Of a stretch of 64,000 bases of DNA, positions 22,606 through 64,000 are shown piece by piece. Position 1 is the stretch's first letter. Each line of letters opens with the position of its first letter. This DNA is from Strigamia acuminata. Its lineage: Eukaryota. A model generated the notes under the pieces. That model made no database searches. It saw only the letters and a list, made by a program, of their open reading frames with translations, and was not told where the DNA came from. Location: NCBI GenBank assembly GCA_949358305.1, contig OX442314.1, forward strand, positions 2,480,001 to 2,544,000, read 5' to 3'. The position numbers and the translations under genes were made by a program.

Positions 22606-22843
22606 TACTAATTTGATGGTGCTCTACAACTTTGTGATTGGAAATTTTGCTCTAACCTGATTGGTTTAGAAGTTAGCAAGTGATTGATCTTGAAAATGGC
22701 CTTCAAGGTCAAATTCGATGACATCATTGGATTGCTCTTACCCAACTTCCTATACGATCGCTTCATCAAAGTTGGCCTAGATGCAATTGCTCAGGATATA
22801 TTTGGAGGGAACAGACTTTTCTTCCACCCTGTATACATATATA

Positions 22844-24046: not shown

Positions 24047-25114
24047 GTCATTGACAACGTTCAACAAGCGACAGTGGATCATCTTCGACAGCGACGTGGA
24101 CCCCGAGTGGGTGGAGAACCTGAACAGCGTGCTGGACGACAACAAACTGGTGACGCTGCCGAACGGCGAGCGACTCAGCCTCCCGCCCGACGTGCGCATT
24201 ATGTTCGAAGTGCAAGGCTTGCTCTACCCAACCCTGGCCACCGTGAGCCGGTGCGGCATGCAGGGGCGGATCTACATAGGGGCTAATGGGGCTTGAGCCC
24301 CGGGCCCCCGAAGTCTAGAGGGCCCCCAAAACGCAGGGCCATGTACTAAAAAAAAAAAAAAAAAAAAAAAGGTTGCTAAAAAACAAAAAAGATGAAAGGT
24401 CGCTATTAAAAATTTCGATAAAGGGGCCCCGAAAAAACCTCAAGCCCCGGGCCCCCGAAAAGCTAGATCCGCCCCTGGCGGCATGGTGTGGTTCAGCGAA
24501 GACGTGCTGTCCACCGAGATGATCTTCGACTTGCTCACCATCGACGAACAAATCGACATCGACGTCCGATCTATAAAGACTTGCGCGTACGGCGCCGCCA
24601 CGTTCGCGGACATCTTCAACAAGATACAGAAGGCCGTGGACGAGCTCAGCCTGCATCAGTATTCGAACCTCCACGTCTGGGCGGGCAAACTGGACGAAGA
24701 GGTGGACAGGAAACTTGCGTCGCGCCTCCAAGCAAGAATCTAAGCGTGAACGCAGTGCTTGGAGGGCCGAGGCGGCGGCAGAGGCGACTGCGGAGGCGGG
24801 CCGAGCACGGGAACCCGCAGATAGCGGCGCTGGTGCATGAAGTGCGCATCACGAACCAGATGATGTACTTGCACCCGAGCATCGAGGAGGCGCGCTACAA
24901 TATAGTGCAGCAGCTGTTTGGATGGGAGGCGGTGGTTTTGGCGCTCGCGCGCATTCAGAGCACGCGCTACCAGGTCGAGCTTGATAAGTTGACGAGGGAG
25001 ACGTACAAGAACTTGCTGAGCAAGCTGCCGGATGGGATTGAAGAGCGGATGGAGAGGATGAAGAGTTATGTAGACGAGTGGCTCACGTATCATGCGTTGT
25101 GGGATTTGCTTTGA
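24047..25114 (+). pseudogene. Scrambled cytoplasmic dynein heavy chain fragments
   Basis: AAA2 segment [37 protein letters not shown]...SRCGM/VWFSEDVLSTEMIF is fused to N-terminal tail segments (VRSIKTC...SNLHVW; VHEVRITNQMMYLHPSIEEAR...RIQSTRYQV). Has frameshifts, stops and a MITE insertion. Confidence 0.9.
24261..24477. mobile_element. hAT-type MITE
   Basis: TIRs CAGGGGCGGATCTA / TAGATCCGCCCCTG; perfect 8-bp TSD GCGGCATG. Confidence 0.92.
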
Positions 25115-28365: not shown

Positions 28366-28920
28366 GCCAGAAATCTCACAACCGCTTGTTCTTTAAAAGG
28401 TTAAAAGTTTTACACCAATATATTATAATTTAATTAACAACAGCACGGATAATACGTTTTTACAGTAATCATGTCTGTGCTGATATTTCAATCAAATGAA
28501 GCGATCAATAACAGCGAATGTCGAGAGACCAGTGAGAATACCAATTACAGATCCAATATTTGAAAACAATTTTGCGACCGAAACTTTTCGCATTTCTTCA
28601 ATTACTTCTCTAATGTTTTGTTGTATTATGTATGTAGTACGGCTACGGTGATTTAAAGGTGGAGGTGGTATTTCCCTTTTGTCTATCACCGCTAGATTAA
28701 ATATGGCTTCTTGGCATTGTTCTCGGCAGTTACAGTCTTTCTGAGGGTTTGTTTTCATTTGAGTTTCCAAGTAAATTTTTTGCATTGCTTTAGCTTTTTC
28801 TAGAGAAGTGCAAAGCGATGAATTGCTATTTTGCATAAATGGTAATCTGTGAATAATTGAAAAAATAAATAATATCTACTCAGATCTAGTGCTCTGTAGG
28901 AGACAACAATGAGGGGCGCT

Positions 28921-29426
28921 ATACTGGGAGCAACATGTCTAACAGCAACATTGCTCTTTGACATGTTAAAGGAATGTCTAAGAGCAACATTGCTTTTCGG
29001 CATGTTAAATAAATATCTAAGAATAACATTGTGTTGCTCTTAAACATGTTAAGTAAATTGCTATTAGGCATGAAAATGTAATGACCAAGAGCAACACCAT
29101 ACATTTTTTTTTTCAAAAACCAAAAATGTAACCTAACCTAACCTGACCTGACCTGACCTGACCTGACCTGACCTGACCTTACCTGACCTAACCTACCCTA
29201 ACCTAACCGATGAAACGCACCGAGCGGAATTTAAATTCGATGAAACGACTCCCGTTTTCCCACATTTCAAAAAATAATAAAAAATTAGCAATGTTGCTCT
29301 TAGACGTTATTAGGACTTCAACTGTTGTGCCACGTCATTTTTTTAATAATGTCTAAGAGCAATGTTGCTCTTAGACATTATTAGACCAACTTGAATTGTT
29401 GCTCTTGGGCATGTTGCTCCCAGTAT
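28921..29426. mobile_element. Non-autonomous TIR element with internal subrepeats and (ACCTG/ACCTA)n tract
   Basis: Inverted ends ATACTGGGAGCAACATG / CATGTTGCTCCCAGTAT; no TSD recognised. Confidence 0.7.
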
Positions 29427-29884
29427 GCGGCAGCGTAAACCACATACGGAACGTATGCCAAACGTTACAAAACCTTCTGCAAAACGTTCACAAAGTCTCA
29501 GCAAAACTATCGTAACAAATTAGTAAAAATAGTGGTAATATCAGTTTCTTTTTTGAAGTTTAATTTTATTGGGAAAATTAGTTAATTTGGGTTTAGTTAA
29601 AATAGTGGGACAAAAAAATTAATTTAGTGTGAAAGTCAGTAGGTTGAAGATTTAGTTTTTATTTAATGGAAATCCAAGGAAAAATATTGGGCCAATAAAT
29701 GGGACTTTATATATTGACCAATTAACTTATGCAAACACATTGGTTTTATAAACACCCGTGTTCCCGATTAGTTCGGAAAATTTTCCAAGTTCATCATCCT
29801 GGTTTGGCCTCCAATTAAAATGGACTTGGTCTTCGCCATGACACCTGAAGACTGGTTACCATGGTGTGGGACGACCCATCCTCA

Positions 29885-30319
29885 TGTAATAATTAGACAG
29901 GGACTCCGGATTGTTTGGTTTTTGTCCTTTAATCAGTTGCTAGGGGTCGTAGTCTCCTATCTACCCACGTGTTGGCAGTGCAGCAAAGGCACTCTACACT
30001 ATGAATGACATGGCCGGTCAAACATAACCATTCTGGCTGTATTGGATCCATCATCGCACTACTGAGTTTCGCAGTGATAAATGGGGAGGAGAGGAGAGTC
30101 AGCACAGAGCAAAACGACTCTTGCTGGCTTCAGGACTTCTCTTACACGTTTTTCTCGGTTGAGACCCACCGCTTTTCTCTCCACTCCCCACACCACTGCA
30201 GCTCTCTCCTTCCCTATACTGGGTCATACAGTACCACTTTTCTAATAGGGATGACCTTAGGGCCATTGGGCAGTGTATGGTAGTGACGCAGATCACTCTT
30301 GGCTGGCCAAGTGGTCACA
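29885..30319. mobile_element. Putative solo LTR related to 25263-25755
   Basis: TGTAATAATTAGACAGGGACTC...GGCCAAGTGGTCACA. Confidence 0.5.
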
Positions 30320-30369
30320 TCTTTTTACAGTGTGCTTTAGAATAATGTGATTTGCTTAATTAGTTAGAT

Positions 30370-30803
30370 CAGCGTTTCCCAAACGGTGAGGCGCGAGCTG
30401 ATTTTTGGTGGGGCGCGACACATCGCTCACAAAAAATTTCTTTTTTAAAAATTTTAACAATCAAACTAACTTATAGACATGATGCCCTCCCCTTAGAATA
30501 GTGCACTTGTCTTGTCGTCTAGAAGAGTCAATTCTATCTAGACAATACACAACTGCCAAATTCAAATCCATTTCAGTTTGTGTGCTCAATTCTATTATGG
30601 ATAAATGGCTGATAAATAAGCCTTCATGCTCATAAAATTATATGTAAAATTGTATAAATTGTATGCAATATTATATAAAAATTTCTTTTTTCTTTTAAGT
30701 AGTTCATTTTTGAAAAATTTAATGCACCGGTAGATGAAGTGGGGCGCGGAAGATTGCCTTGCTTAAAAATGGGGCGCGATGCTAAAAAGTTTGGGAACCC
30801 CTG
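30370..30803. mobile_element. hAT (Charlie-like) MITE
   Basis: CAGCGTTTCCCAAAC / GTTTGGGAACCCCTG ends; perfect 8-bp TSD AGTTAGAT. Confidence 0.9.
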
Positions 30804-32608
30804 AGTTAGATGATCATAAGTTATTACCTGCAAGAAACATTCAGTTTGGATGCATAACATTTCCGTTCACATTCTGAAACTTCCTTGTTGTCATCACATG
30901 GCCTTTTTGGAGTATTTATTCGAAGAATCTAGAAGGAACAAGTGTCTTACAAATAACAAACAATTTTAAATTACTAATTACTAATTACTAAATTACTAAT
31001 TTACCGTTTGACGGGTAATATCATTTTTAGTATTGAATCCGGAGTGTATGTAAACAATATGTTTTAGGAAGAAAAAATTGATCTTCTGGCAGAATGAAGT
31101 GCTAGAAAGCATGAATTGAAATATTTTATGTAATTAAAGTGTTCAAAATATCTCACTGGCTGCTTTCTGTCGTAGCCTATCCTAACTTTGTTCAAACTGC
31201 TCCAAATGTAGATATAGTTCTTATACGGTATGAACTTCATTTCCCCTAGAAACAATTAGAAATAAAAATTATTGTCTGGCGTGTTTTATTATGGGAATTA
31301 CTGCAATCGTGAATCAAAGTTAACATAAACACATATCATTCTGTTCAGTGCGGTTTGCTATCGAAGGCGCCACATAAAACTGTATATAGCTACACTGTAT
31401 TCTGGGATGACAACAGGTAACAAACATGCTTAGTTAGCAAGCAATGCATGACACGTGATTGCTGTCATCCAAGTGAACGTGATTAACCGTCGCGCGATGG
31501 AGCGGCGCGGTATGAAAAGTCGGGATATAGGCAATGTGAAGTATAGCTTACCTGCAGTTAACACTTTGAAATAAATTGTTGTGCACGAAAGCGTTTTTAC
31601 ACTTGAAATGAACATTTTTGTTCTCTTCGCATGGATTACGCTTTGTATTTCTTCGTATAATCTATTAAAAAGAAGCTTAGTATGACAGTTTATATAATTA
31701 TTTCAATTACCTTATATTCTCGAAGTGTTACAGTGATAAAATATCCATAGTTTAAAACCAGTAGTGTCAGAAAGTTATATTCCTCTTCGTGGTCGTTTAG
31801 TAATAGCTGAATATTATAATAATCCAAAATAATTATATCATCACCATCTTCATATACTTGTAAATGATTTATTTATATGCTAAAACTACCGGGTGGCCCA
31901 CATAAAACCGGAGAAAAACTATTGTCAGGCCAGGTGTCTTTTCACCAACCGATTATTTCCAAGGGATTTGGATTGGATGTGACAATTACTTTGTAGAATG
32001 ACGTGTGTAAATGAATTCCATTTCTAAAGTAGTACAGTACAATCTTTTATCAGAAGGTGAAATTCTGCCATTTTTACTCCATTCGGGTTGACACTTCCCA
32101 GTTACACCTTTTAACATCTATTAATTATTATTCACCATTTTAGGTGTTATAAATTTTTATGAAGCTTTTTTCATGTTTTTTCACCTTTTTCCACCTTTTT
32201 TCCACCTTAAGCTATTTCTAGCAGTTTAAATACATTGGCATAATGTGCTTTCGAAATATTAAATTTGTTTTTCGTTTTGGTCAATTGAAGTGTTGAATTA
32301 CCGGATTATATTTTTCTTTCTTGTGCTACTGTATAATCAACTGCTTCAATAAATAGATTTTCTACATTCCATCAATATTGTGTACGGTATAAATCCAAGT
32401 GTTGAAACTGTCAATCCGAGCATTTTTTAAAATTATTCTAGTGGTCATGCTGTGACGGTTAAAAAACCGTATTATCCAATGTTCACACTAGACGGCGCTG
32501 TTTATCTAACGCGCGCAGTTTAAACTCGAGAAAATTACGAGTTATATTAAAGAATTAATATAACGTTGTGAATAAAATATATAGTATTTTATTCAATCTA
32601 ATTAAGTA

Positions 32609-33391
32609 CTCCCTCTGTCCCAAATTATGGTATACATTTCTCTAAAAAATTCTTGATTATTGTTGGTTTTGTATATTTCTAAGATATTTTAACTGAATAT
32701 CCTTCAAAATTAAGTGTGTTTGCTAACCAATGGATTGCATTATGGGTAATTAGTTTTATCATTCCGTTATTGCTGAGTTGCATCTTCTCAAAATGCACTC
32801 AAAATTAAGTGACACCTGTTGTGCTTAAAGTAAAGTGAAAATGAATTTGAAAAATGGCTGTTTCCAAAGAAAAATGTCAAAATGGAATAAATTTACTAAT
32901 AATCAGCAAAATTGTATACAACAGCTCTAGCTGAAACAAAGAATAAGGCACCATTAATGAAATTTGCAAGCAAATTGAAATTACTCCACTAACTATTTCA
33001 CGAATTCGACGAGAAGTTAAAAAACAATACAATGAAGGACATATTCCTGCCAAAAGATAAACATAACAATGTATTTTTGACATTGCAATGTTGTATGGAG
33101 TCAGGGATGATAGCAAAGAATGGCAACAATTACAAAATTCACAAATTCAGAGCAATTATTACAAGTTATTGTTATGGAGTATTATTTATTGTTATTGTTT
33201 ACTCTTTATTTTTTATTGTTATTATTTACTCCATATTATTTGTTGTTTACTTAATTTATTTATAATTTAACTTATTTATATTAATTTTGCATTTTTATAA
33301 TGATAAAAATCAAATAAAACTTGAAATGTATACCATAATTTGGGACAAAAATATTAGTAGAAATGTATACCATAATTTGGGACAGAGGGAG
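32609..33391. mobile_element. Stowaway-like Tc1/mariner MITE
   Basis: TA|CTCCCTCTGTCCCAAATTATGGTATACATTTC ... GAAATGTATACCATAATTTGGGACAGAGGGAG|TA. Confidence 0.9.
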
Positions 33392-33931
33392 TATTATTTA
33401 CTTGAGATATTGATTCTATCGAATCAATATCCTGTTTTACTTACCTGTCGAAGAGAACCAATCAAAGTCTTCTGGACACAGTCTCTATTAGGTCGAGACT
33501 AAAGTGACCCACGAATCCATCGATTCGGGCATCTGATTGGCTATTGCCAATCCTACTGTTCTTCTGAACTATATAAGCTCTGGTTTTCACCAGAACTACC
33601 CCTTGGCCTGAATGAATATTGTTGTATTGCATTGTTGTTATCGTATGATCTCACTTTCTCTCACGACACATCGGGCCTCCTCAGCTCTCAATGGATATGT
33701 ATTATTACTATCACGTTATTGCTTGTTGTAGGGCCCATCTGGGAAGGCTAACCTTGTAAACATGTTTATGTTAAATACATGAAATGGCTCCGTAGCGTTA
33801 GCTTGCTGTTCTAAGGGACAGTTAGATTTCGTACGGTGGCGTAGTATATCGCTCATACACGGGATTGACTAACCCGTTAAATAAATGTCAAACTATATGA
33901 TCGGTGATAGTCGCATCTATTTGCGCTAATA

Positions 33932-35415
33932 CAACCCCAAGCGAAAATATTGAAATACTCGGATTTTGTCAGTATTCCATGTTCCCCAAATGGGCTAAAA
34001 ACAAAAGTTTCAAAGTTAAACAAATATCCACAAAAATACTTTGAAAACATGTTTAATTGGCTTTATTTTAAGCAAAAAAAATTTAAAAAAGGTGAGATAT
34101 TTATCCCACTATCCACAAAAACGTCTGTGACAAAACATTAGAATCACAAAAGTGTTGAGACAAAAAATTAGAATAATTGTGAGAAGAGACAGAAATCTTA
34201 TCTATCCCACTCATTTAAAAAATGATAGCATTTAGTATTTGGTTGGTCTTCCTTTTGCATCAATCACAGCCCTCACTCGTCGCGGCATCAAGTCCACCAA
34301 CTTCTTACACTGCTCACTAGTAATAGAGGCCCACACCATGAGCGGGAGCCAGGTCATGTTGAAAAATAAATTTATCATCACTGAACATTGATTCTGATGA
34401 AGGCATCATGAAGTAGTTGAGTATCTATTGATACACAGCAGAGTTTATTGTACCTTTCACAAACGTTAACTCCCTCATTCCAGATGCAGCCATACAACCC
34501 CACACCATGACACAAGCAGGAAATTTTACACACTTCTTCAAACAGTTTTTATTGTACATTTCATGTTTTTCCCACCAAACTCGTGGACCCTGGTCCCCAT
34601 AATATAAGTTAAATTTTGATTCATCGCTGTAGAGAATCATTGCCCATTGGTCTGGGGTCCAATCTATCCTTGCCTTGCATCACTCAAGTCTTCTTTTCAT
34701 CTACTTGCTGCTTAGAAGTGGTTTTCGTTTGGGAACACGAGGTGCCAATTGAAATTCATATAAACGACACAGTGTTGTACATTGGGAGACATTTATTCCA
34801 TTTTTTCCCACTGTGCATGATGAATTTTAGATGACTTGAAACGGTTATTCATTACAATCGAATGAAGTTTGCGATCATCTTGTGGTGTTGTTTTACGTTT
34901 TCATCCACTATAGTGCCGCATGGTGTTTAGTCCTTGTCCAGAGGTAATCTGCTTTATTGTTTTGGAAACTGCAGATTGACTGCACCCTACAATTGTTGCA
35001 ACTGATCGTTGTTTACGACCGGCTGCATTAAGTTAGACAATCTGCTCTCTTTCTCCATGGAGATGTCATTGTTGGCACCCATTTTAATTTAGTCATAATG
35101 TGTACACATTGTTTGAGGTTATTTGCGGCAATTTGGTCACGTGGAATGATGTTTTGCTAATTTTTGCAAATTATTCTAATTTTTTGTCTCAACACTTTTG
35201 TGATTCTAATGTTTTGTCACAGACGTTTTTGTGGATAGTGGGATAAATATCTCACCTTTTTTAATTTTTTTTTGCTTAAAATAAAGCCAATTAAACATGT
35301 TTTCAAAGTATTTTTGTGGATATTTGTTTAACTTTGAAACTTTTGTTTCTAGCCCATTTGAGGAACATGGAATACTGACAAAATCCGAGTATTCTAATAT
35401 TTTGGCTTGGGGTTG
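33932..35415 (-). mobile_element. Tc1-like transposon with ~240-bp TIRs and a degenerate transposase
   Basis: TA|CAACCCCAAGC ... GCTTGGGGTTG|TA; motifs ILYSDESKFNL, VMVWGCMAASG, MPRRVRAVIDAKGRPTKY; frameshifts and deletion. Confidence 0.92.
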
Positions 35416-36531
35416 TACTTGATCATAGGTCAGATGCTCTGCCAGAGCACATACACGGGAAGTCGAACCCGTTAAACAAATATGGGCAACCTATCTCCTC
35501 AGGGTCCAATGCGGTGCATTTGTCCTTCCGTATGTTAAAGGTTGGTAAAAGGCCTATTCATAGGCAACACGCCGGGTTGGTAGCCCTTGAGCAATTGCAT
35601 TCATACCTTGCGCAAAACCAATACTTGGGTATTGGTAATGCCGATCTGGTAGTCCCCCAGGAACTGTTTACCCAGTGGTTGGTACCACTGAAAGCGACTT
35701 GTCGCACGCAAACAAATACCCGGCGCCTGATCACGAGATCTTGTCGTCGTAAGGCATGCTGGCGGATGGAGCCTCAACAACTCCCGCGATGGTCCCCTCG
35801 ACTATCGTGACTGTCCCCGCCCAAAGAATAACAATATAACAATTCATTTGTTATATTACATTAATAATGTTTCGTTAACTAGATCTCGGAATATTCTAAT
35901 GAACATTCCCGTCCAAATGCGAAGGACTCTTCGCATTAATAGATACTCGAGCTGCGGGACCGAATACGTCTCCGTAGCGCTAACTGTGACGATGCCGCAA
36001 AGTCAGCCGCACCCTTCGAGCATCGCCCGGATCCTCAACCAGTGTAGCCGCCGTTACACTTATCCAGAACCCCCAACCCAGTTGTAATGTTAATAAACAT
36101 GTAATATATCGCACGAAAACTGTAAGTTATTATATTTGATCACATATTTACGTTGCACAGACTTCCGTAGCTTATCTCGGTTAGGTTGTTACTAGGTTTA
36201 GTAATGTCTTGTTTAAACCGATTTATCTCTTATAATGGTTAATTATTCAGCCAAAAGTAGAATCGTTACAATGCTGCATTTCGTAGCATCATTGTGTGCT
36301 GTGATTGCAAAGTATCGTGTGTTTTGTGTGAAAGTGTTTTACCATACCTTTAGCTGCTGGTCACATACATTTGATGAAACATTTGCATTTCTAAATAAAA
36401 TTCTAAGGATAGGAGTAAAACGTCTTTGTTTTGCTGAAAAACAGTGAAAGGTCGGAATCAATTTTCAAATGCATCACCGAGAATGCAACTTTTGGAAACA
36501 AGAGTTTGAACAACATGTCTATTGTCTACTG

Positions 36532-36944
36532 TATACTCTGGCTTATCGTAAGTGGGTACCCAGTTCCTATTGGCCGAGCCTGTTTACTCCTAACTGCAGC
36601 CTTTATATTACCACCAGGAAATGTAGTTTTGTTGTGTTTTACATTTGTGTCATTATTGTAATGGTTGAAATGATGTTAATTTGCTAATATTTACTAATAA
36701 AATGTTTTAAGAAACCATAAAGCAATGTTTTCTGCTATTATTGTTTTAAAATACCTGTTTGTTCAGTTTGTTTATTTTATTGGTTGCTAAGTCAGGAAAG
36801 CAACCATTTTTTGAATTTTATGATTGATTGTTTTGTCTGGCAAGCACACAACATGTATTTTGGCCTATTTTCATGTATACTTACATCGGCCAATAGGAAC
36901 TGGGTACCCATTGGCCGAGCCATTTTAGGGATAAGCCAGAGTAT
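36532..36944. mobile_element. MITE with TATACTCTGGCT / AGCCAGAGTATA ends
   Basis: Terminal inverted repeats; the same ends occur at ~58256-58859 and in the duplicate copy. Confidence 0.65.
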
Positions 36945-38372
36945 AGTAATTAACTAAAATTAAGGCATTAACTAATTTTTTTTTCTTTCATGTTTTACAT
37001 CAAGTACTGTGTTTAAACTCAAGAACTAAAAGAAATTAATTTTGTAAATTACTTGGTTTTAGTTGCATACAATTTCCAAATGGAAATTTCACACGCTGCT
37101 TTGGTGTTAACTATAAAAAAAATACATTATTTTTGTGTTTGTTGTAGGAATATGTCTTATTATTTGTTACATTCAACGGATCGTTTATTATTTCAAAGCT
37201 TGTCACAAGTGTTTTCCAGATGTCCTCCACTGACAAATTGTTATTGACCAAATGCCAGGGTAACATGTTGCTACAAGTTGTATTGGTGTTTTGAAGCAAG
37301 TGTAATCTGGCTCTTTCTACATTTTCATTTTGCACTTCACCGCAGAAGGTGATTAAAGGAAATTGGCTGTAGCGCCTTTGAACTACTCTAACGATTGTTG
37401 TTACCGGTTCATCGAAGTAGTAGTTTGAACGAATGTAAACGCAATATAAAGTCAACCCTGCAACAACTAATACAAATATTAACTTGAGCTTTTTTGCGAC
37501 CTTATTTACGTTGGTTTGGCCGTCACTTTTGATGATTTTGTTTTTGCACGTCTTATACAGACGATCAATCGCATTATCGGTTTTCTTTTGGTGAATGTGC
37601 GATGTAACGTAATACAAATACGAAATGACATCAGGTAATGAGACTAAGGAGAGACCAAGGAACAGGCCCAGGTTGCCTCCTAAATCGGACAGTAAGGCAA
37701 TGACATCGTAAATGTACCGTTGTTCATATACGGTGACTTTCTTATTAGTAATTGCTAACGATACAGCCGTCGTATTTTCATCATTTGTTACGCTTGAATC
37801 AGTAACTGGGGTAAAAATTATTTGTCGACACGGACGTCGATAGTGGCAACCAATTGGTTCTGTGGTTAAAACCAAATCCCTGAAAGCAACATACAGCTTG
37901 CGTGCATTGTTTGTACATTTGCAAAGTGGTAAGTCTGTCTTCATGAATGGATATCTCGTGTAGAAGATGTTTAATTAGTTTTTTAATTGTGTGATGTATG
38001 TGAAACGGTCTTACCTGCAGGTCATAAATTTATTAATTTTTTTCATTAAACAAGTTTGATAGCATTGTTTGTATTCGTCTTCACTAGCGCATGGATTTAT
38101 CGGTGAATTAAGAAATACAAACTACAATTAAATACATTACAAGGTATCGCTAAGAAATTTTAAGTTCTTGCGTAAACATAATACTTTGTCATAAGTGTAA
38201 TCTATTTTCAATCTTGAACCACCATATAGATTTGCTAGCTGCCACTCTGTTCTAATATCATGGGACATAAGAAAAATCTAAGAGCAAGGGAAAATAATAA
38301 TAAAATAGCAATAGCAATTCTACTATATTTAAGTTACCACACGAAAAGAGCCGCATTCACTGATTTTTACGA

Positions 38373-38756
38373 CTAGTAAAACAACCCAGTTGCGATTGCA
38401 GCACGCGCGAGCAGCAATTGAAAGACAAGATGTTAAAACTTAACTAGTTTAATGATGGAAATTTTGTTACGAAAAAACGCGTGCTAACACACGTTCATAC
38501 ATAAAAAAAGATGGTGGTCAACCCCAAAAAACGGGGTCAACTTCCGGTCAACAAGGACCGGTCGCTGAATTTACATACCAGAGGGCTCTTGTAACAACCC
38601 TCGATAAGAACAATAATATAACACTTGTAATTAATTCAAACACTGTAAAACATATCGTTATTCAAATAAATTCAGAAAACAAATAACTTGGACTAATTTT
38701 AAAACTAACATAAAACATGAAATTTAACACTTTAACAACAATATTAAATCGACAGA
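38373..38756 (-). mobile_element. Possible non-autonomous Helitron inserted in a DEG/ENaC exon
   Basis: Minus strand A|TC ... CTAG|T without TSD; only an imperfect subterminal hairpin. Coding-like sequence (ECGSFRV then GT donor at 38337) resumes after it. Confidence 0.4.
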
Positions 38757-40961
38757 TTTTACACTGATCAGGCTGTCTTTTGTTTCAAAATTCACTGTTA
38801 GTAACTTTTCAACAAATGATTCGCTAGTAGTTTCAGCTGTGTCAATGAATAACATTAGTGTAATTTAGTGATAAATGCTAGTTTGTAGTTACGAAATTGA
38901 AATGTTGAGCATATTCTGCGTATATTATTAGTTTTCGTCTGAACAACAGTGTTATTTGAATATCCCTAAGCAAATACGTTTTAAAAATTGAGTTTTTACT
39001 AAACTTGTTTTTTCTTTTTTTCTTTTTTTTCTTTTTTTTCTTTATTAATTTTTTTACTTTCATTTGTATACTGACTATCTCATCAGTATTATTAGTTGCT
39101 TTCCAGAGTTCATCCATATCGTAACTTGTATTTTCAAAGTTCATCAGTGCATCAAACGTGGTTATGCATGGATCGGCTATTGATTTATATTTATTTGATT
39201 TCAGAATTTCTGCCCGAAGCTGGAATAGTTTTTATGTATTGACACTACAGATCATTATGTCAGGTAAATTAACATTTTCCGATCTACTGGTTATGTCAAC
39301 AGCGGTAGGATAACTTAAGTAATGCATTATTCTGTCGTATGTCTGATAAGTATTCATGCACATGCAAAATGAGAATAAAAGCAGCCAAAAGATGTGATGT
39401 TTGTCTCGTTTCCTACTCTTTATAAAATCATCTAAACCAATTAAATTGCAGTTGGGTTTGTGGGCATCATCCTTCATTAATTTGAGAATTGTCAGACAGA
39501 GTTTTCTTTTCCCTCTTCTGTATCTCCACGTCAAATTATTATTCTCCATTAATTCGGTACCTTCCAAGCTCGTAGAGATAGTGAATGAGTTTGATCTAAC
39601 TATTTGTTTGCTTGAGCACACATGCAGAGGGACTGCCAAACTGAAAAAGAAAACAAAATTATTTTTTTAACATCTGCGATGCTCAGTGGTGAGATGTCAG
39701 ATCCACCACAGCCTCAATGAGTGGTTGCATGGGCCACACGGGTGAGTACGGCAGAATAGTTATGTCCAACTGGCCACGTCACCCATGGAGATCCCTCTCT
39801 TGTGCGACAGGTCGGTTGCTTGTGTGGCATGCCTTTGTGGCACTGCCAAAACATGTGTAGAAGGGAAACCAATCCCTAGACAAATGGATTAAAGGCCAAC
39901 AAACCAACAATCTGGAGTCTTTGTCTATCTGATATTTACGTGAGTATGCGGCCCACCCCATGGTATCTAGTCCCCAGGTTATCCTGGGCAAGACCACAAC
40001 CTGGGCGAAATGGGAAAAATCTATCACTGTACTTTTTTGGGTGCAAATGAGCTGGTCTGAATGGAAAACACGAATGTCCAAATGTTTTTCAGTTCCAAAT
40101 TCTTAAGAAATTGTGGGAAACTTTAAGTCTATACAGTACGTCAATTAACTATGGAATTAAATTTTAACAGCATTTGGGCCAAAAATCTGTTTGATTTTTC
40201 TTCCCATTTATAGATAAAATTTTGATTTAGGCATAGAATAACTTATTAAAATGAATTTTTTTTACTTAACCAAAACTTTCTTGAAAAGAATGAAAAGAAC
40301 CATTTAATTTGGTTTTTATTTTGGTGGTTTAATTTTTGGTTGTTGGTCAAAATCAAAATTTCTTAACTTTAAGCTGTTTTACTCAGCTTTAGAAAGCTTA
40401 CCTGAACTTTGGTGTGCAAATGATGACTTGAGCTTAGGATAAGACAGCAGACGAGGAAAATAAAACGTTGTTTGTTTCTAACACCGTACAGCTGTCGTGT
40501 GAGATATCTTAGAACAACTTGGCCCAGCTGACTCTCAGTATCTACAACAGCTTGCTTTCAAATGCAAAGAGAAAAACAAGTTAGTAAATCATTCATTTTA
40601 TGATGAAGATTATGCGTCATTAAAAAAGGCCTATGAATTATATTTCCGGTGTTTTTGAAATCAATCCTTGAGAGTTTTTAACGACATAAAAGTAGTTCTG
40701 TATCTTCAATAGAGTTGACCCAAACACCAGGAGCAAGTGAGCAATATTTGTTAAAAATGAGAATGAAAAATGTTTAATACACCTTCCACACCTCTTGATT
40801 ATAGAACTGTAAACAATTAGCTAATTGAACCCCGTCGCTTATTCGAACCCCGCAACTTTTTAAATTTTTTTAGATTGTTTCCAAGAAACGATAATTTTCT
40901 TGTTAAAATCGCTAATTTTTGCAAGAAAATTATCGTTTTTTAAAATTGAATGGTTTACTTT

Positions 40962-44009: not shown

Positions 44010-47000
44010 TTAATTGTGGGATTCGTAAGCCTGGCACAAACAACACGAGAACTTTTCGTCTTCAAACCAATTAGCTTCGTATTCGATGGAACAATGCATC
44101 ATCTTGACGAGGAGACATTGTGTTTGAAACCACACCGCTTCGTCGCTCGCTTCGTCGCTCGCTTCGTCGCTCGCTTCGTCGCTCGCTTCGTCTTTTAAAT
44201 TAAGCAGCTCCAACTTCGGACAGTTTTCGACCAAAAATGCCGCGCTTTCCATTTGCAAGCGATCCAAACTCAGATGTGTCAGATTTGTCAAATTTGCACC
44301 GTTCATCCCATTGAACTGCGTTTCTGTATAATTGCACAATGCCAAGGTCTTCACACCTGGACACAAGTTTACACATCTCTCCAACACCTTTCCATTATTA
44401 TCATTTAGCATTAAATGCAAAACACTCGACTTGATCGTCTCGGCTTTCGTGTGAGTGCATCCAAAGTCGGGCACGCCGTCAACGGTCAAATACTCGAGAC
44501 ACGGCGCGGCGTTGAACACCGAATGGAAGCAAACATTGTCCACTTCATAAAGAATGAGTTGGGTCAAACTGTTCATTTGTGGTGGGTGCAAATGGGCGCG
44601 GTAGTTGTCGCATGGGAATATATGGCCGATGTGGGCCGTCATGAGCTTTAATTTTGCAAGTTTTGATAAAGACGTTAAAAAAAGCAAGCATGCTGGGTCG
44701 TGGTCTTTCATCATTTCCAGTGGTTTCACAATTTTCACATGGCACAAGTTCGGGAAAACAGACGGCACTTTGTGCACCAAATTGTTGTACTTCTTCTTAT
44801 CTGTCAAGGTTATTGATATTCTTTTCAGCTGAGGGAACACCAGTTGTTGGTCTGACAGGGATTTAATGAGTTGGAGAGAGTCCAATTTCCAGCTGCATCG
44901 TATGTATTCGAGACGAGATAGGTTTTTCAAGGCCTTTTCTACTCCTCTTGCGGTCACGTTGGTGTAACCGAGCTTCAGCCGCTCCAAATTGTTCGCTACG
45001 GATTGCGGCGAGCAGAGATGTTCTATTCCTTGATCCGTCACACGACGGGCAGAACGCACCCACAGTCTCTTCAAATGCGGGCAGTGTTTAGCGGCTAAGC
45101 GCAAAGTGTAGTCGTTGCCGATTTTCTCGCACTTTGTCAAGAGATTCAATTCTTGCAGGTGTGTAAATGATCTTAGGACAAACTCGACGGTTTGAGGTGA
45201 ACGGAATTTCTGGCAGATCGAACAATGCTCCAAACATGGATCAAGATGTAAGGCTTTTAGGCTCTATGTCAAAGAGTGGAAGAAATTAATTAATTAAGTA
45301 TTTAATTTAAAAAAAAACTAAATCCAGTGTTGTATCGAACTAGAACTAATAGTTCGCGTTCGCGAACTTAGTTCGTAGTTCGCGAACTAAGAACGCGAAC
45401 TAGTTCACCTTTTTTGAAGAACTTAAAAAACGAACGAAGTTCGTTTTTTTAACACGAACTAAGTTCTAGTTCGTTAATTAGTTCGTTCCTCCGACGTTAT
45501 AGGTCACGGCCAATCATAGACGATTTTTATAGTATAAAACGAGTGTAATTTCATTGAATAAAACAACTTGTGATTTTCTTCCCTGACTACTTGTTGCGTG
45601 CTTTATTGTTTTGGTGGATTTGGCGGATTTGCAACAATAGTTTTCGTAATTCACTTTCGTAATCGCTTTTTCCGAGATCTGTTATCGTAATATGGAATAA
45701 ATTTAATAATTTAATAATTTTTTACAGTAAATAAATGTCTTCTTCCAGTATAAAATGGTGTAAATAAAAATTTGAATTCAGAAAAAAAAAGTTTGTAAAG
45801 TGAACTGAACTAGAACTGAACTAGAACTGAACTAGAACTTAGTTCACTTTGAGATTTTGGGGTGAACGGGAACTAGAACTAGTTCACTGAATTGAAAACG
45901 GTGATGAACGCGAACTAGAACTAGTTCGCGATTTAGTGAACGAGATACAACACTGACTAAATCAAAATTTTAGACCGAAATTCTACACCGAAAACGAATT
46001 TTAAATAAAGAACTAGTATTTTTGACCAATATTCGACATTTTAGACCAAAATACGACATTTTAGGCCAAAATTCGACATTTTAGACCAAATTTCGACATT
46101 TTAGACCAAATTTCGACATTTTAGACCAAATTTCGACATTTTAGACCAAATTTCGACATTTTAGACCAACATTCGACATTTAAAAGCAAAAATCGACGTT
46201 TAAAAGCAAAAATCGACATTTAAAAGCAAAAATCAACATTTTAAACCAAAGATTGTAGTTTTTATCCAAAGTGTTGATATTTTAGACTAGAATTTGCTAC
46301 GTTACGAATCGTAAGTGTAGTAATGGATTGGTAATACAGTGTAAGGTCTGTAGCCCGGACATAGAACGGGTACAAGAAAGTTGTCTGTACTAAGACGCTG
46401 TCCGCATGGGATGGAGAGGGTCATTTAATATTGCTGGGTGTAAAGCGGGTCCAAGATAGGATCTCCAAACCTGTCTGGGTTACAGAGCTTACACAGTATA
46501 TGGTAATTTCGGCCAGATTTTTTTTTAATTTTCGGGGCCTTGAAAATTCGGCCGATTTCCCGGAGCACTCGTTGAATTGAATGCATTTATTATCTTACGA
46601 AAGTTGTATCGGTATTAGATACAACGAAAACGATGTTGGTTAAGAATGTTACTTTTTTTCCAAATTCAAGCAAATTCAAGAATCTCAAATCCCCACTCAA
46701 GTGTAAATAATCGAAACACGCAAGTGTTTCATAACCCATTTCAATTGTAGAGTTTCGGGGTCATTGACACACGTTGCAGGGGGGGAGTCAGACTTGTGAC
46801 GCTGGGGGGACCACCAGCGCACGTTGCAAGGGGAAATCGAACTCGTGATACTTGATGATCACCAGCGCGCGTTGCTTGAGGGGGGGTCACCGGACGCTGC
46901 CGCCCCGTGACCACCCAGGCAAGGTAATTATTGTGAGCAGCCAATCAAGGCTGTCGTGGAAAGGGGGAGAAACCCTGGTTGTGTAAAATAAAGAGACACT

Positions 47001-55431: not shown

Positions 55432-58400
55432 TCAAAATTGAAGAAGAGAAAAGAAGGAGAAACCAGTAAGAATACCAATAATAGATCCTATCTGACAAAA
55501 TAACTTTACAATGGTAATCTCTGGCTGTTCTTCAATTATTTCTCTGATGTTATTTTCAAAGCTATACGAAACAGATTTTGTGAAGACTTTCCAGTCCTCT
55601 ATGTTGCTGGTGATTGAAGGATTGAAGATGGTTTCTTGACAAGATGCTTTGCAGGAACATTCTTCCTTGGGGTATGTCGTCATCAGAGTTTTCAAATATG
55701 TCTCGTAAGTTGTTTTAGCCGTCTCTTGAGATAGGCAAATGGGGAATTTACTTTTATCCATGGATGGAAGTCTAGTAATACAACAATATTTAATGGAAAT
55801 ATACAGTGTGCCATGACACATGATTTTTTCCAGTTATTAAAAATTGTGCATACATTTGAACTGTTTGGGTGCACGAGGGTAGCAAGGTAGATCAAATGTG
55901 ACAAATTAAATTTATTGGTAAAAATGACAATTTGTGACGATTCTACTTTTAGGCTAAATTATTAGCCATTTTAATAGATAAATCAGTTTAAACAAGACGT
56001 TGCTAAACCTAGCAACAACCTAACCGAGGCAAGCTACGGAATTCCTTGCAGCATGAATCATTAATCGAATAGAAATAACTTACGGTTTTGTATGACATAA
56101 AACATGTTTATTAACATTATAAATGGGTTCGGGGTTCTGGGCACTTGTAAACGGGCGGCATCAACTGGTTGAGGATCCGGGCGAAGCCAGAGGGATACGG
56201 CTGACTTTACGGCATCGTCACAATGAACGCTACGGAGACGTATTCAATCCCGTGGCACGAACAGCTATTTAATGTGAAGAGTCCTTCACATTTGATGGGA
56301 ATATTCTTTAGAATATTCCAGGATCTAATTAATACAAAGTTATTAGCGGAATATAACAATTTATTGTTTTATTATTATTATTGGGGCGGGGACAGTCACG
56401 ATGGTTGAGAGAACCATCGCGGGAGTTGTTGAGACTCCATCCGCCAGCATGCCTTACGACGACAAGATCTCGTGATCAGGCGCCGAGTATTTGTTTGTGC
56501 ACGACAAGTCGCTTTCAGTGGTACCAACCACTGGGTAAACATTTCCTGGGATTACCAGAGCGGCATTACCAATACCCGAGTATTTGTTTAATGTAATATT
56601 TTCACGGCTATTACTCACGAACTACCAACCTGGCGTGTTTACCTGTAAATAGTGTTTTAACCGACCTCTAAAATACGGAAGGACCTCCTGTACGAGAGCG
56701 AACCCTGAGAATATGGCTGTCCATATTTGTTTCGTCTTCGGGTTCGACTTCCCGCATACATGCTCTGGCAGAGCGTCTAGCCTACGACCAAAGAATCGCA
56801 TCGACAGATGCGACCGTTACCGATCATAAGATGGCACAGGTTAATCATCCTGTGCTTGGATGCTTGGATGCTTGGATGCTTGGATGATTTACTATGTCAC
56901 CGTACAGATCTCGCTGTTCCTTGGAACAGCAAGCTAAAGCTACAAGGCTATTTCATCTATTTAACATGTCTATTATCGGAGTCAGCCTTCCCGAAAGGGC
57001 CCTACAACAACAATAACAAAATAGTATTAATACTAATTGTGAAAAGCTGAGGAGGCCCGATGTGTCGATAGTGAAAGAGAGATCAAACGATAACCAATAC
57101 AACTACAGACAATATAAACATATTCAGTATCAAGCCAAGAGGGTTTTCTGGTGAGAAACCAGAACAGTGATATTGGCGATAGCCAATCAGATGTCCGAAT
57201 CGATGGATTCGTGGGTCACTTTAGTCCCGACCTAGTAGAAGACTTGGTCTGGACCTAGCAGAAGACTTGGTCCGGACCTAGCAGAAGACTGGGTCCAAGA
57301 GAGTCCGATTGGTTCTCCCCTTTAAGGTAAGTAAAACGGGTTATTGAGTCGGTAGAATCAATATCTCAACTAAATAATATTTAATTATGCTGAATAAAAT
57401 ATCTTATATTTTATTCCCGTCAACAAAACAATGATTTATCATAATTCTAAACTTTCTCGAGTTTAAACTGCGGGCGTTATTTAAACAGCGCCATCTAGTG
57501 TGAACATTAGTTATTACGGTGTTTATAACCGTCACAAATTGCTTATGTTATGATCATTTTTTTCAATGATTTGAAAGCTTTAAACATAAATAATTTTTTT
57601 TTAGTTTAAAAATTTTTCAGAAACTTTAATAAATTGTGCTTCTCCAACATTTTTGTTGTTTTTGTTGTTTATAAACACCAATAATCACAGAAACGGAATC
57701 TTTGAATACACCGGCTGTTACCAATAAATTTGCTCCACTTGATTGTTAGAAATATACCGTATACTCAAACAATGTGTGTAGTGTATGATTTGTAAATTGC
57801 AATATGGGATGCACGGTAATTAGTGGATGAATTACAAGTTACCTGCAATTGAAAGGTTGTTGCTCAAGTTTCTTTTCAAAGCAGTCTTCTTCACATCTTA
57901 AAACTTCATCATTTGGTCTGCAAGGACTTCTCGGGGTATTTAATCGAACAAGCTGGAAAGATTAATCAACTAAGTGGCAATTTGAACAGATTGAACAAAT
58001 TGGGGCCCCAAATCAAAGAAAAATTTGATTTTGTCAAAACTGTCGATAATTTCTCAAAAGTGACAACAATTTATCAAATTTGATAAATCCGTCAATTTAC
58101 GGTCGGCGCATTCAATAGCACTCGTTAAACATTTTTTCTATTTATATTTTTTTAATCAAGAGATTTAAATGACAACTGATGCAGATTAAATTGGGTGCCA
58201 TTTTTGAAATCTAATCACTCTATTTAAAATATTGCAATGGCTTTTCGAATGTGCTTATACTCTGGCTTAGGTTGGCCTTTCGCCCATTGGTCGAGCCACA
58301 CACAAAAATAGACCAAAACACCAGAAATGCAATTCATGTTCACTACAAATTTTTTCAAAGTGAACCAAGTTCTAGATCGCGAACTTGAACCAATAGTTCA

Positions 58401-61400: not shown

Positions 61401-64000
61401 TTTTGTTTTGGTATTTTCTTCGCATATTTTGCGTGTTATTGAATCAATTTGATGCCAAAACGTTGTTTACACGTATTGTGCACGTATTGTAAAAGTATTT
61501 TGCATATTTGGTGCACGTACTGTTCACGTTATTGCAACCGGTCATTTTAACCGGTTTCGGCCGTTCTAGGTAGGCCGAAATTCCGGCCGTTCTAGTGTTA
61601 AACAGCGCCATCTAGTGTGAACATTAGTTATTACGGTGTTTATAACCGTCACAAATTGCTTATGTTATGATCATTTTTTTCAATGATTTGAAAGCTTTAA
61701 ACATAAATAATTTTTTTTTAGTTTAAAAATTTTTCAGAAACTTTAATAAATTGTGCTTCTCCAACATTTTTGTTGTTTTTGTTGTTTATAAACACCAATA
61801 ATCACAGAAACGGAATCTTTGAATACACCGGCTGTTACCAATAAATTTGCTCCACTTGATTGTTAGAAATATACCGTATACTCAAACAATGTGTGTAGTG
61901 TATGATTTGTAAATTGCAATATGGGATGCACGGTAATTAGTGGATGAATTACAAGTTACCTGCAATTGAAAGGTTGTTGCTCAAGTTTCTTTTCAAAGCA
62001 GTCTTCTTCACATCTTAAAACTTCATCATTTGGTCTGCAAGGACTTCTCGGGGTATTTAATCGAACAAGCTGGAAAGATTAATCAACTAAGTGGCAATTT
62101 GAACAGATTGAACAAATTGGGGCCCCAAATCAAAGAAAAATTTGATTTTGTCAAAACTGTCGATAATTTCTCAAAAGTGACAACAATTTATCAAATTTGA
62201 TAAATCCGTCAATTTACGGTCGGCGCATTCAATAGCACTCGTTAAACATTTTTTCTATTTATATTTTTTTAATCAAGAGATTTAAATGACAACTGATGCA
62301 GATTAAATTGGGTGCCATTTTTGAAATCTAATCACTCTATTTAAAATATTGCAATGGCTTTTCGAATGTGCTTATACTCTGGCTTAGGTTGGCCTTTCGC
62401 CCATTGGTCGAGCCACACACAAAAATAGACCAAAACACCAGAAATGCAATTCATGTTCACTACAAATTTTTTCAAAGTGAACCAAGTTCTAGATCGCGAA
62501 CTTGAACCAATAGTTCAGTTTACTTTTCAAAATTTGTTTTTAAATTGAAATTACAACACTCAGCCCTGATTGGCTGTCACATAAAACGTCTAGTGGACGT
62601 ATCATCAACATTTTCAAAATGTTGATGATATTTCCACTAGAAATGTCATTTTGTAAATTTCGAATTTGAATTTGAAATTAAAAAATTATCGAAAAAATTC
62701 AATTGAATTGAAATTGTCAAATTGAGTGACTAATACCAACAGCCTCTAGGAACTTCCCTGCAACACAATCACTGATTTATTTATATTTTAAGAACTTAAC
62801 AAAGTGAACGCAAACTTCGTTCACTTATAAAAGTGAACTAGTTCGCGATCTTAGTTCGCGAACGCGAACTAATAGTTTGCGTTCGATACAACACTGGTTG
62901 TAGTACAGTTTACAGTTAGAAGTAGTGAGACTCGGCCAATGGCAGAAAAGGCAACCTTATAGTGAGCCAGAGTATAGTGGAGTTATCATTTTTTGAATTC
63001 ACCGTTTGAGGGTTAAAGTTGACAAAAGCACTTAATTTGCTGGGTACATCAAAAAGATATTTCGGATGAAAAAATTGATTTGTTGGCAAAATGAAGTGCT
63101 GGAATACATAAAGTCAAATTAGTAACTACTGCAATTAACAGTGCGAAGGATGAACTTCTATCTCACTTCTCGTTTAAGAGGACAGTAGGGACTGGGCTGA
63201 TCGACAATCAATAGAAAGGTTCCTTTTCGAACAAATGGCCGGTCACCTGTGTACAAATATTTTAGTGAGAATTAAAAGAGACTTTTTTTTTTTTTTACCT
63301 TTATTGAATGCAGTACACATTCCATACACTGTTTGTTTTAATGAGAAGTTGGCAAAATAAAATGCAATATCCTCTGCTGTTGCCCCATACTATAAGTTTG
63401 TTAAATTTTTACACTTTTGAATTGATAATTTAATATTCTGATTTTTTTTTACCTTGATTGCAGATCTTCGGTCTTTGTCGTATAAATCAAGACGAGACGA
63501 GACATTCCATAATTGCAGTGTTTGATTTGCGAATTCAGATAGTGGATGGAGTAAATCCAACAGTTGTAAATGATCACAATCAGTTGTGTTGAGTTTTTGG
63601 GCTAAGTCCTTTTTAGCAGCTGATATGATTGTACTATCTGTACATGCAATGATGAGTGGAAAATGAATTTTTTCATCTCTAATGAGTTTAACAGTTTTCA
63701 AGAGTTGAAATTGAAAATATGAATCAATCAAATGGTAAATGTAGTAGACAGATATCAAGCCAAAGAATAGTGAAGTTGTGATTTTGATCACTTTTTGAAC
63801 AAAAGTTGGTTTTCGGTTATTCTGTATCTTTTCAAGTGACATTTCAATTTTATCTGTCAACTTGGAATTTGCTGTTGTTGGTTTGTTGGTGCATGTTTTG
63901 CATGAGTGAATGAATATTTCGACCAAAGTCAAGCAAGACATGCCGAAATAGAGGCCGATGTTTCCTCCAATGTCGCATAGCAAATTGATGATGTCATAAG
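55432..64000 (-). CDS. Second concatenated DEG/ENaC gene, 3' portion; 5' part lies outside the window
   Basis: Junction exon 63453->64000 (LCDIGGNIGLYFGMS...TM1...FPLIIAC), then 63299-63389 (TVYGMCTAFN), 63167-63246, 63003-63098 (HFILP), 61960-62069 (thumb) and last exon 55432-55771 (CQIGSIIGILTGFS*). Phases are consistent; four exons are duplicated at 57843-59271. Confidence 0.88.
55933..57536. mobile_element. Solo LTR (1.6 kb); duplicated at 59413-61653
   Basis: TGTGACGA...CGTCACA ends; 4-bp TSD AATT; same family as 32451-36270. Confidence 0.88.
60965..61597. mobile_element. piggyBac-like (TTAA-specific) MITE
   Basis: TTAA|CACTAGAACGGCC ... GGCCGTTCTAGTG|TTAA; the empty TTAA site is present in the other duplicate at 57481-57484. 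Confidence 0.93.

What the first reader, a model, noticed from the sequence alone, without database searches (positions are those of the whole stretch)
28492..39640. Natural concatemer DEG/ENaC: probable single-chain three-subunit channel gene
Seen: exon 37171-37954 reads without stop or intron from a DEG/ENaC TM2 (YDVIALLSDLGGNLGLFLGLS), through a ~40-aa basic linker, into a new TM1 and post-TM1 motif (YYFDEPVTT...FPLITFC). The locus has three homologous thumb exons of identical phase (38015-38121 LNSPINPC...CR; 31552-31661 RNTKRNPC...CR; 30828-30928 INTPKRPC...CR), one N-terminal TM1 and one terminal TM2. Established: ENaC/ASIC/pickpocket channels are trimers of separate 2-TM subunits, and concatemers are known to me only as laboratory constructs. 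Inference: the intact gene encodes three divergent subunits in one 6-TM polypeptide with fixed stoichiometry. This copy has lost the domain 2-to-3 junction exon, since only ~300 bp and a phase mismatch separate exons 31552 and 31245.
Basis: partly seen in the sequence, partly recalled or inferred. Interest (0 to 1): 0.95.

Follow-up and report, generated by a model that had tools for sequence, protein, structure and literature searches.

The report
Naturally fused sodium-channel subunits
This stretch holds a broken copy of a centipede-type sodium-channel gene in which two channel subunits are written as one continuous protein, a fusion that recurs in many related genes and that our literature searches met only as lab-made constructs; the fused pair likely supplies two of the three subunits of a sensory channel.

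Summary
The fusion is real. One exon (37954-37171, minus strand) reads without a stop from a DEG/ENaC TM2 through a basic linker into a new TM1. A divergent paralogue in the same window (63998-63453, 26% identical) does the same, as do 21 gene models named Strigamia maritima; 0 of 34 ordinary DEG/ENaC loci do.

The three-subunit reading of this locus is not supported. It holds two TM1 and two TM2. Its 'third domain' groups with the terminal domain of the neighbouring paralogue's subfamily, whose upstream partner is a first-position domain (AU p 0.024 against a middle-domain clade). Most likely two two-domain genes were joined by a deletion. The copy also carries an in-frame stop and a frameshift.

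The family's main form is a two-domain, four-helix tandem related to centipede antennal BRTNaC1/PDPNaC1. Three-domain chains exist elsewhere: a Strigamia subfamily (two overlapping models) and six complete 1245-1307 aa proteins on unnamed Logan contigs, probably of independent origin. Transcription across the junction and channel stoichiometry are untested.

The parts
39058..39549 (-). Gene 1 exon A: N-terminus, TM1 and post-TM1 region of domain A; in-frame TAA at 39234-39232
   Evidence: Pfam ASC E 4.3e-12; 51% identical to S. maritima T1JEH2 over 158 aa; stop at codon 106 of the spliced frame
38893..38965 (-). Gene 1 domain A small exon X1
   Evidence: AG/GT bounded, phase 0 to 1; tblastn to T1JEH2
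38763..38836 (-). Gene 1 domain A small exon X2 (donor chosen by phase)
38185..38277 (-). Gene 1 domain A small exon X3
   Evidence: AG/GT, phase 0/0, in frame
38015..38121 (-). Gene 1 domain A thumb exon
   Evidence: profile hit iE 3e-7; phase 0 to 2
37171..37954 (-). Junction exon: end of domain A thumb, TM2, basic linker of about 37 aa, TM1 and post-TM1 of domain B, one open frame
   Evidence: 49% identical to T1JEH2 over 89% of the ORF
37053..37110 (-). Gene 1 domain B exon X1
   Evidence: AG/GT, in frame with the junction exon
33930..35417 (.). Decayed Tc1/mariner-like element with 249-bp inverted termini inside the long intron of domain B
   Evidence: 97.6% inverted repeat; broken transposase-like motifs in three frames (motif names recalled; Pfam found nothing on one 84-aa piece)
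31946..32023 (-). Candidate domain B exon X2; phase does not fit, so broken or misplaced (uncertain)
31711..31806 (-). Gene 1 domain B exon X3
   Evidence: 42% identical to T1IYF0 domain 2; AG/GT phase 0/0
31552..31661 (-). Gene 1 domain B thumb exon; the exon that should follow is absent
   Evidence: 47% identical to T1IYF0 domain 2
31246..31551 (.). Inferred deletion joint between two genes; contains a genome-wide repeat near 31380-31480
   Evidence: phase clash; many contigs with loose ends at 31383 and 31472
31157..31245 (-). Remnant gene: exon X2 of a terminal (B2-type) domain
   Evidence: same phases (1 to 0) as exon X2 of gene 2
31005..31101 (-). Remnant gene: exon X3 with a one-base frameshift
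   Evidence: 97 nt between phase-0 sites; two-frame tblastn hit to P0009
30828..30928 (-). Remnant gene: thumb exon
   Evidence: 50% identical to the gene 2 thumb exon
28492..28846 (-). Remnant gene: last exon with terminal TM2 and stop
   Evidence: Pfam ASC E 3e-6; 40% identical to gene 2's last exon
63453..63998 (-). Gene 2 junction exon (cut by the window edge): TM2, 33-aa basic linker, TM1, open frame
   Evidence: Pfam ASC 2 stretches; 26% identical to the gene 1 junction
61960..63389 (-). Gene 2 terminal-domain exons X1 (63389-63299), X2 (63246-63167), X3 (63098-63003), thumb (62069-61960); repeated at 59271-57842 by a 99.9% tandem duplication
   Evidence: splice in frame with no stop; duplication
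55432..55771 (-). Gene 2 last exon with terminal TM2 and stop
   Evidence: Pfam ASC E 4.4e-9; 420-aa spliced frame without internal stop

Best explanation
The locus is a broken member of a centipede DEG/ENaC family in which two divergent subunits (A then B) are encoded head-to-tail in one reading frame, here likely fused by a deletion to the 3' end of a second two-domain gene; intact members would make a four-helix protein that likely fills two of the three positions of a trimeric sensory cation channel. Shown: the open TM2-linker-TM1 exon in two window paralogues, its recurrence in the family, complete A-B models, and this copy's stop, frameshift and missing exons. Inferred from trees (about 0.8): domain B of gene 1 and the 'third domain' are terminal domains of two different two-domain subfamilies. 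Inferred from topology (established DEG/ENaC knowledge: both termini cytosolic): the basic 26-60 aa linker stays in the cytosol and keeps each domain the right way round. Inferred and untested (about 0.5): a free third subunit completes the trimer, so A and B are always neighbours, the pore is asymmetric (B-type TM2s are degenerate) and the third subunit can vary. A role in antennal heat or pH sensing is only suggested by kinship to BRTNaC1 and PDPNaC1.
For: Open junction in gene 1 and gene 2. 35 of 150 listed hits of a junction-profile search have TM2 followed by TM1 (the query enriches for this); 21 of the 35 are named S. maritima. Control: 0 of 34 ordinary DEG/ENaC loci read from TM2 into TM1. 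Complete TM1-TM2-TM1-TM2 models: P0013, P0014, P0020; four more named models end in junction-domain-TM2-stop. Trees: first-position domains form one clade (98/97; 96/94 with the mixture model), including the domains upstream of gene-2-type terminal domains (P0005, P0011). Gene 1 domain B groups with terminal domains of P0013, P0017 and P0020 (93/95). The 'third domain' groups with gene 2's terminal domain (100/100, both trees). AU test rejects a shared middle-domain clade, p 0.024. Held-out profiles agree: gene 1 domain 2 scores A 38 / B 73 bits, 'domain 3' 73 / 135, and the four upstream fragments score higher on A. AlphaFold2 of P0013 gives two ASC-like units (pLDDT 69, pTM 0.64); best Foldseek and sequence matches are BRTNaC1 and PDPNaC1. 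An engineered ASIC1a dimer gives currents in oocytes (PMC4529235, passages).
Against: No S. maritima model shows the last exon of gene 1's own subfamily (P0001 and P0004 stop inside it), so that domain B being terminal is inferred from sister clades. The S. maritima proteins are automatic models, mostly partial, and their DNA was not seen. B domains form two groups, not one supported clade, and P0014 domain 2 falls inside the A clade. The AU test used LG+G4, was run after a FastTree tree had been seen, and involves long branches. Profile scores compare fragments that cover different parts of the domain. A two-domain chain does not fit a three-fold channel by itself, and nothing here identifies a third subunit.
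Confidence: 0.6

Rival explanations
1. Same two-domain family, but A-B chains assemble among themselves: three chains give two tethered trimers, two chains give a trimer with one domain left outside, or two chains give a pseudo-tetramer.
For: Tandems far outnumber recognised single-domain Strigamia models among the hits (P0029 is the one looked up and named). Engineered ASIC1a dimers conduct, and that paper argues for tetramers (PMC4529235, passages). A and B distances are weakly correlated across 15 proteins (Spearman 0.27, Mantel p 0.005; partly driven by close paralogues).
Against: The closest solved relatives are trimers (3 chains per entry; PDPNaC1 homotrimer, PMC12714832). The search was built on the junction and so under-samples single-domain partners.
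Confidence: 0.22
2. One reading: this gene was a single-chain A-B-C trimer (or a longer A-B-A-B chain) that lost an internal junction exon.
For: Three thumb exons in one orientation with only about 300 bp between 31552 and 31245. The last exon of gene 1's subfamily is unseen in relatives. Three-domain chains occur in the genus: P0010 (TM1-TM2-TM1-TM2-TM1) and P0006 (TM2-TM1-TM2-TM1-TM2) overlap at 96%, 74% and 99% identity.
Against: The domain that precedes a 'third-domain'-type unit in relatives is a first-position domain, not gene 1's domain 2. The three-domain Strigamia subfamily is a separate clade of recent internal repeats (100/100). Only 2 TM1 and 2 TM2 lie in the locus.
Confidence: 0.1
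3. The fusion is a polyprotein or read-through arrangement: the chain is cut in the basic linker, or transcripts start or end inside the junction exon, so the subunits act separately.
For: Linkers are rich in Lys/Arg (median net charge +6). Engineered concatemers show lower-mass by-products (PMC4529235; PMC10329638; passages). P0019 and P0035 linkers keep a full N-terminal-like pre-TM1 stretch.
Against: Most linkers are shortened to 32-46 aa and have lost the pre-TM1 motif, and length is held at 36-39 aa in gene 1's subfamily. Basic residues are expected next to cytosolic helix ends anyway (established topology rule, recalled).
Confidence: 0.07
4. Chance loss of a stop or an assembly or annotation artefact in a tandem gene array.
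For: This copy is a pseudogene. Fused models from automatic annotation exist among the hits (for example P0018, P0065; P0030 and P0036 unchecked).
Against: The junction lies inside one exon, in two paralogues only 26% identical, and recurs in 21 named models. A stop-free 45-codon run has p about 0.03 per gene at local composition, and 0 of 34 control loci show it.
Confidence: 0.01

Closest known systems
[quoted passage not shown]
   Same: Best matches among solved structures by profile (E 1e-42 and 3e-33), by single sequence (E 6e-20 for P0013) and by fold. Same compact ASC unit; PDPNaC1 also lacks a canonical HG motif (PMC12714832, passage).
   Different: They are single-domain 421-431 aa subunits forming homotrimers; identity is only about 20% in the structural alignments. 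The Strigamia-type genes put two (one subfamily three) divergent units in one chain.
ASIC / ENaC / pickpocket (Pfam ASC PF00858)
   Same: TM1, Cys-rich ectodomain, TM2 with G-x-S in the first-position domains.
   Different: One unit per chain, assembled from separate subunits; 0 of 34 control loci read on past TM2 into TM1.
Engineered ASIC concatemers (ASIC1a dimers, trimers, tetramers; ASIC2a/3 trimers)
   Same: Head-to-tail linkage of cytosolic C- and N-termini gives functional channels with fixed order (PMC4529235, PMC10329638; passages).
   Different: Artificial linkers join full-length tails. The natural linkers are 26-60 aa between helix regions, basic, and join units only 11-26% identical to each other.
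Naturally repeated channels of other folds (K2P and two-pore channels; four-repeat Nav/Cav)
   Same: Internal duplication fixes subunit order and allows an asymmetric pore (recalled, not tested).
   Different: Those folds are tetrameric, so two repeats divide evenly. Two repeats do not divide a trimer, which is the open puzzle here; the three-domain proteins are the direct analogue.

Membership tests
DEG/ENaC (Pfam ASC PF00858) | ASC profile match with two membrane helices flanking a large ectodomain | tested here: met
   Pfam ASC on exons A, junction and last exon; fold match to BRTNaC1 and ASIC1 for P0013
DEG/ENaC (Pfam ASC PF00858) | Cysteine-rich thumb | tested here: met
   three thumb exons plus downstream Cys pairs
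DEG/ENaC (Pfam ASC PF00858) | TM2 with G-x-S belt | tested here: met
   G-L-S in gene 1 domain A and in the remnant's terminal TM2, G-M-S and G-F-S in gene 2; several B-type TM2s are degenerate (G-x-C, G-x-T)
DEG/ENaC (Pfam ASC PF00858) | Pre-TM1 His-Gly motif | tested here: not met
   gene 1 domain A keeps only the Gly; the junction linkers lack it. Not strictly required: PDPNaC1 lacks it
DEG/ENaC (Pfam ASC PF00858) | One ASC unit per polypeptide | tested here: not met
   two units in one frame in both window genes and in relatives; this is the variant feature
DEG/ENaC (Pfam ASC PF00858) | Trimeric assembly and cation current | not testable with these tools
   needs expression and structure
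Centipede BRTNaC1/PDPNaC1-type antennal channels | Closest characterised relatives by sequence and fold | tested here: met
Centipede BRTNaC1/PDPNaC1-type antennal channels | Shared clade in a tree, antennal expression, heat or proton gating | not tested
   their sequences were not placed in my trees; gating residues not compared
Single-chain three-domain DEG/ENaC (this locus) | Three TM1 and three TM2 in one frame | tested here: not met
   2 TM1 and 2 TM2 in 28-40 kb; 'domain 3' belongs to another subfamily
Single-chain three-domain DEG/ENaC (other genes) | Three TM1 and three TM2 in one protein, conserved by position | tested here: met
   P0079 and P0153-P0157, 6 of 6; Pfam ASC 3 stretches on P0079; position-specific clades

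The most novel reading that the evidence does not exclude
Natural DEG/ENaC concatemers have arisen at least twice in animals: an old, expanded two-domain family plus a younger three-domain subfamily in Strigamia-type centipedes, and an unrelated, conserved three-domain family (six complete proteins, plus three with a shrunken middle domain). The three-domain proteins would be self-contained single-chain pseudo-trimeric channels, the trimeric counterpart of four-repeat Nav/Cav channels. The two-domain proteins would build channels of fixed asymmetric or non-canonical stoichiometry.
Probability: 0.65. Interest if true: 0.9.

Novelty: new variant of a known kind. Interest (0 to 1): 0.8.

Why it matters
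DEG/ENaC channels are known as assemblies of separate subunits, and concatemers are lab tools. A natural, conserved, expanded family of fused subunits shows that evolution has fixed subunit order in this fold. The two-domain form poses a testable stoichiometry question: a free third subunit, tethered trimer pairs, or a tetramer. The three-domain proteins would be ready-made single-gene heterotrimers for studying asymmetric gating and selectivity. Kinship to centipede antennal heat and pH sensors points to a sensory repertoire that the Strigamia genome paper's main text does not mention. The locus flagged here is itself a dead copy; its value is as a pointer to the family.

Tried and rejected
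No whole genome is held for this window, so intact paralogues of the same species could not be read. Sequencing runs: no RNA holder listed. In one search a 242-nt contig of run X6 (kind not on record) matches only exon 31552-31653 with 15 differences; whether X6 is RNA could not be settled, so it is not used. Summed contig depth was not read as copy number. A word-index search with P0001 returned only itself. ESM Atlas gave only ordinary single-domain ASC clusters for both queries. The metagenome scan found 34 ordinary DEG/ENaC loci and no junction (used as a control). AlphaFold2 of the three-domain P0143 failed (pLDDT 38.6, pTM 0.27) and was not searched. The complete three-domain proteins exceed the folding limit and were not modelled. 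Complex prediction of the P0013 tandem with a third ectodomain gave no answer (score 0.01, alignment not used). Kyte-Doolittle scanning missed several helices and was replaced by TM1/TM2 profiles. A candidate X2 exon for gene 1 domain B (32023-31946) does not fit in phase and is left uncertain. Literature: ten searches listed no natural DEG/ENaC concatemer; the library lacks most subscription papers and no supplements were read. The scan's earlier findings had nothing on this.
Full report
Observation. On the minus strand, ORF 37974-37111 runs without a stop from the end of a DEG/ENaC thumb through TM2, a basic linker, a second TM1 and the post-TM1 motif. Pfam ASC matches it twice. Tested apart, the first half scores E 1.6e-9 and the second E 5.8e-5, the latter just below the curated cut-off. 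Seven exons from 39549 to 37053 have AG/GT ends and splice into one 560-codon frame with a single stop at codon 106. At 63998-63453 a paralogue only 26% identical has the same open TM2-linker-TM1 exon, and its remaining exons splice into 420 codons without a stop. A profile scan of all 2661 stop-free fragments finds two TM1, two TM2 and three thumb exons in 28-40 kb and no trace of a second junction.

More than chance. At local base composition a 45-codon stop-free run has p about 0.03. None of 34 ordinary DEG/ENaC loci from metagenome contigs reads from TM2 into a TM1; their frames stop 2-75 residues after the TM2 match. The only hit of the first protein search was Strigamia maritima T1JEH2, 49% identical across the junction. 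A profile search of 1.84 billion representatives gave 1737 proteins at E 0.001; I examined the 150 listed. With TM1 and TM2 profiles built from those hits, 35 of 150 show TM2 followed by TM1 (the query favours such hits). Of the 35, 21 are named S. maritima, 8 were not looked up but sit among them in the tree, and 6 come from elsewhere. Linkers measure 26-60 residues between profile ends (median 43, 25 junctions) and are basic. That the window comes from a Strigamia-like centipede is my inference from these hits; I did not test it with other genes.

Two domains or three. Among the named models P0013, P0014 and P0020 are complete TM1-TM2-TM1-TM2 proteins of 791-907 aa; P0017, P0018, P0019 and P0065 end in junction, domain, TM2, stop. 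I cut the proteins into 103 domain rows. FastTree used all; IQ-TREE LG+G4 used 60 after dropping 43 short, redundant or distant rows; IQ-TREE LG+C20 used 33 chosen rows. First-position domains form one clade (98/97; 96/94). It contains gene 1's domain A and also the domains that precede gene-2-type terminal domains (P0005, P0011). Gene 1's domain B groups with P0001-P0004 and, less firmly, with the terminal domains of P0017, P0013 and P0020 (93/95). The 'third domain' groups with gene 2's terminal domain (100/100). If the locus were A-B-C, the unit upstream of C in relatives should resemble B. Forcing those together is rejected (AU p 0.024; simple model, long branches, run after a first tree had been seen). 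Profiles from other proteins agree. Against a clean picture: B domains form two groups, P0014's second domain falls in the A clade, and no relative shows the last exon of gene 1's own subfamily. The best reading is two two-domain genes in a tandem array joined by a deletion, with a genome-wide repeat at the joint, a stop and a frameshift: a pseudogene.

Three-domain chains exist elsewhere. In S. maritima, P0010 covers domains 1, 2 and the start of 3, and P0006 covers the end of 1, then 2 and 3. They overlap at 96% (52 aa), 74% and 99% (78 aa) and belong to a separate clade of recent internal repeats. These are automatic models whose DNA I did not see. Separately, P0079 and five relatives (6 hits among 7997 candidates scored) are complete TM1-TM2 x3 proteins of 1245-1307 aa, 44-74% identical to P0079. 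They lie on Logan contigs of 4236-5335 nt that the reading frame fills to 70-90%, as mRNA or intron-poor genes would. Their domains are 21-25% identical within a chain and cluster by position. P0100, P0131 and P0143 match the same positions in 8 of 9 domain comparisons and have a middle domain shrunk to about 200 aa. No tool named their organism. They form their own clade (100/99), so independent origin is likely but was not formally tested.

How it likely works. Each unit folds as an ASC subunit: AlphaFold2 of P0013 gives pLDDT 69 and pTM 0.64. The nearest solved structures by fold and sequence are the centipede antennal channels BRTNaC1 and PDPNaC1. BRTNaC1 is heat-activated (PMC9974506, passages); PDPNaC1 is a homotrimer gated by proton dissociation (PMC12714832, passages and section 7). 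Both termini of a DEG/ENaC subunit are cytosolic (established knowledge), so a TM2-to-TM1 linker keeps the topology. Engineered ASIC dimers and trimers are functional (PMC4529235, PMC10329638, passages). I commit to an A-B chain filling two adjacent positions of a trimer completed by a free subunit, about even odds. First-position TM2s keep the canonical motif while terminal ones are degenerate, which would make the pore asymmetric. Self-assembly into tethered trimers or a tetramer is the main rival. Transcription across the junction, stoichiometry and stimulus are all untested.

Comparison with print. Ten searches (listings and abstract starts) showed no natural DEG/ENaC concatemer. Term look-ups found no mention of ENaC, degenerin or ppk in the main text of the Strigamia genome paper (PMC4244043) or of PMC5850775. 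They found no fused or tandem forms in PMC5203786, PMC8438182 or bioRxiv 2022.06.28.497943, and the ENaC passages of PMC7067487 mention none (passages). PMC8438182 notes only that candidate PPK sequences exist in Strigamia. Supplements were not read and subscription papers are not held, so a prior mention cannot be excluded. The analogy to K2P, TPC and Nav/Cav repeats is recalled.

Verdict. The fusion is confirmed and the single-chain trimer at this locus is not supported. The finding leads to a real, apparently undescribed variant of DEG/ENaC architecture: an expanded two-domain family and, in other genes, three-domain chains. New variant of a known kind; interest 0.8.

Noticed in passing
window 55833-63428: Tandem duplication of about 3.5 kb at 99.9% identity that repeats gene 2's exons X1 to thumb; an assembly artefact or a very recent event. 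If real it would break the frame unless one set is skipped.
   Followed up: partly
window 33930-35417: Decayed Tc1/mariner-like element with 249-bp inverted termini in gene 1's long intron.
   Followed up: partly
window 35418-36271, 33392-33850 versus 55932-57379 and 59412-60859: The same repeat family (70-81% identical, opposite orientation) sits in introns of both channel genes.
   Followed up: no
P0143, P0131, P0100 (unnamed Logan/ENA proteins): Three-domain DEG/ENaC proteins whose middle domain has shrunk to about 200 aa but keeps TM1 and TM2, as if reduced to a pore-lining spacer.
   Followed up: partly
P0036 (Polypedilum vanderplanki, 1460 aa), P0030 (Helobdella robusta, 944 aa), P0137 (ENA, 636 aa): Further multi-domain DEG/ENaC models in other animals; may be annotation fusions of neighbouring genes or further independent concatemers.
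   Followed up: no
P0014 (S. maritima T1ITL7): Its second domain groups with its own first domain inside the A clade, hinting at a separate internal duplication or gene conversion.
   Followed up: no
window 15532-18165 (+): Long-exon MutL-family mismatch-repair gene (Pfam MutL_C, DNA_mis_repair).
   Followed up: no
window 20659-22593 (-): Retrotransposon gag-like ORF with zinc knuckle (weak Pfam hits), followed by inverted repeats at 22616-23610.
   Followed up: no
window 24467-25114 (+): GC-rich ORF that looks by recall like a dynein heavy-chain fragment; no Pfam match.
   Followed up: no
window 44010-45263 (-), 49277-49627 (+), 51110-51973 (-), 9027-10079 (-): Single-exon LRR protein, RING-finger gene, C2H2 zinc-finger array, and a zf-MYND plus DUF4470 gene.
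   Followed up: no
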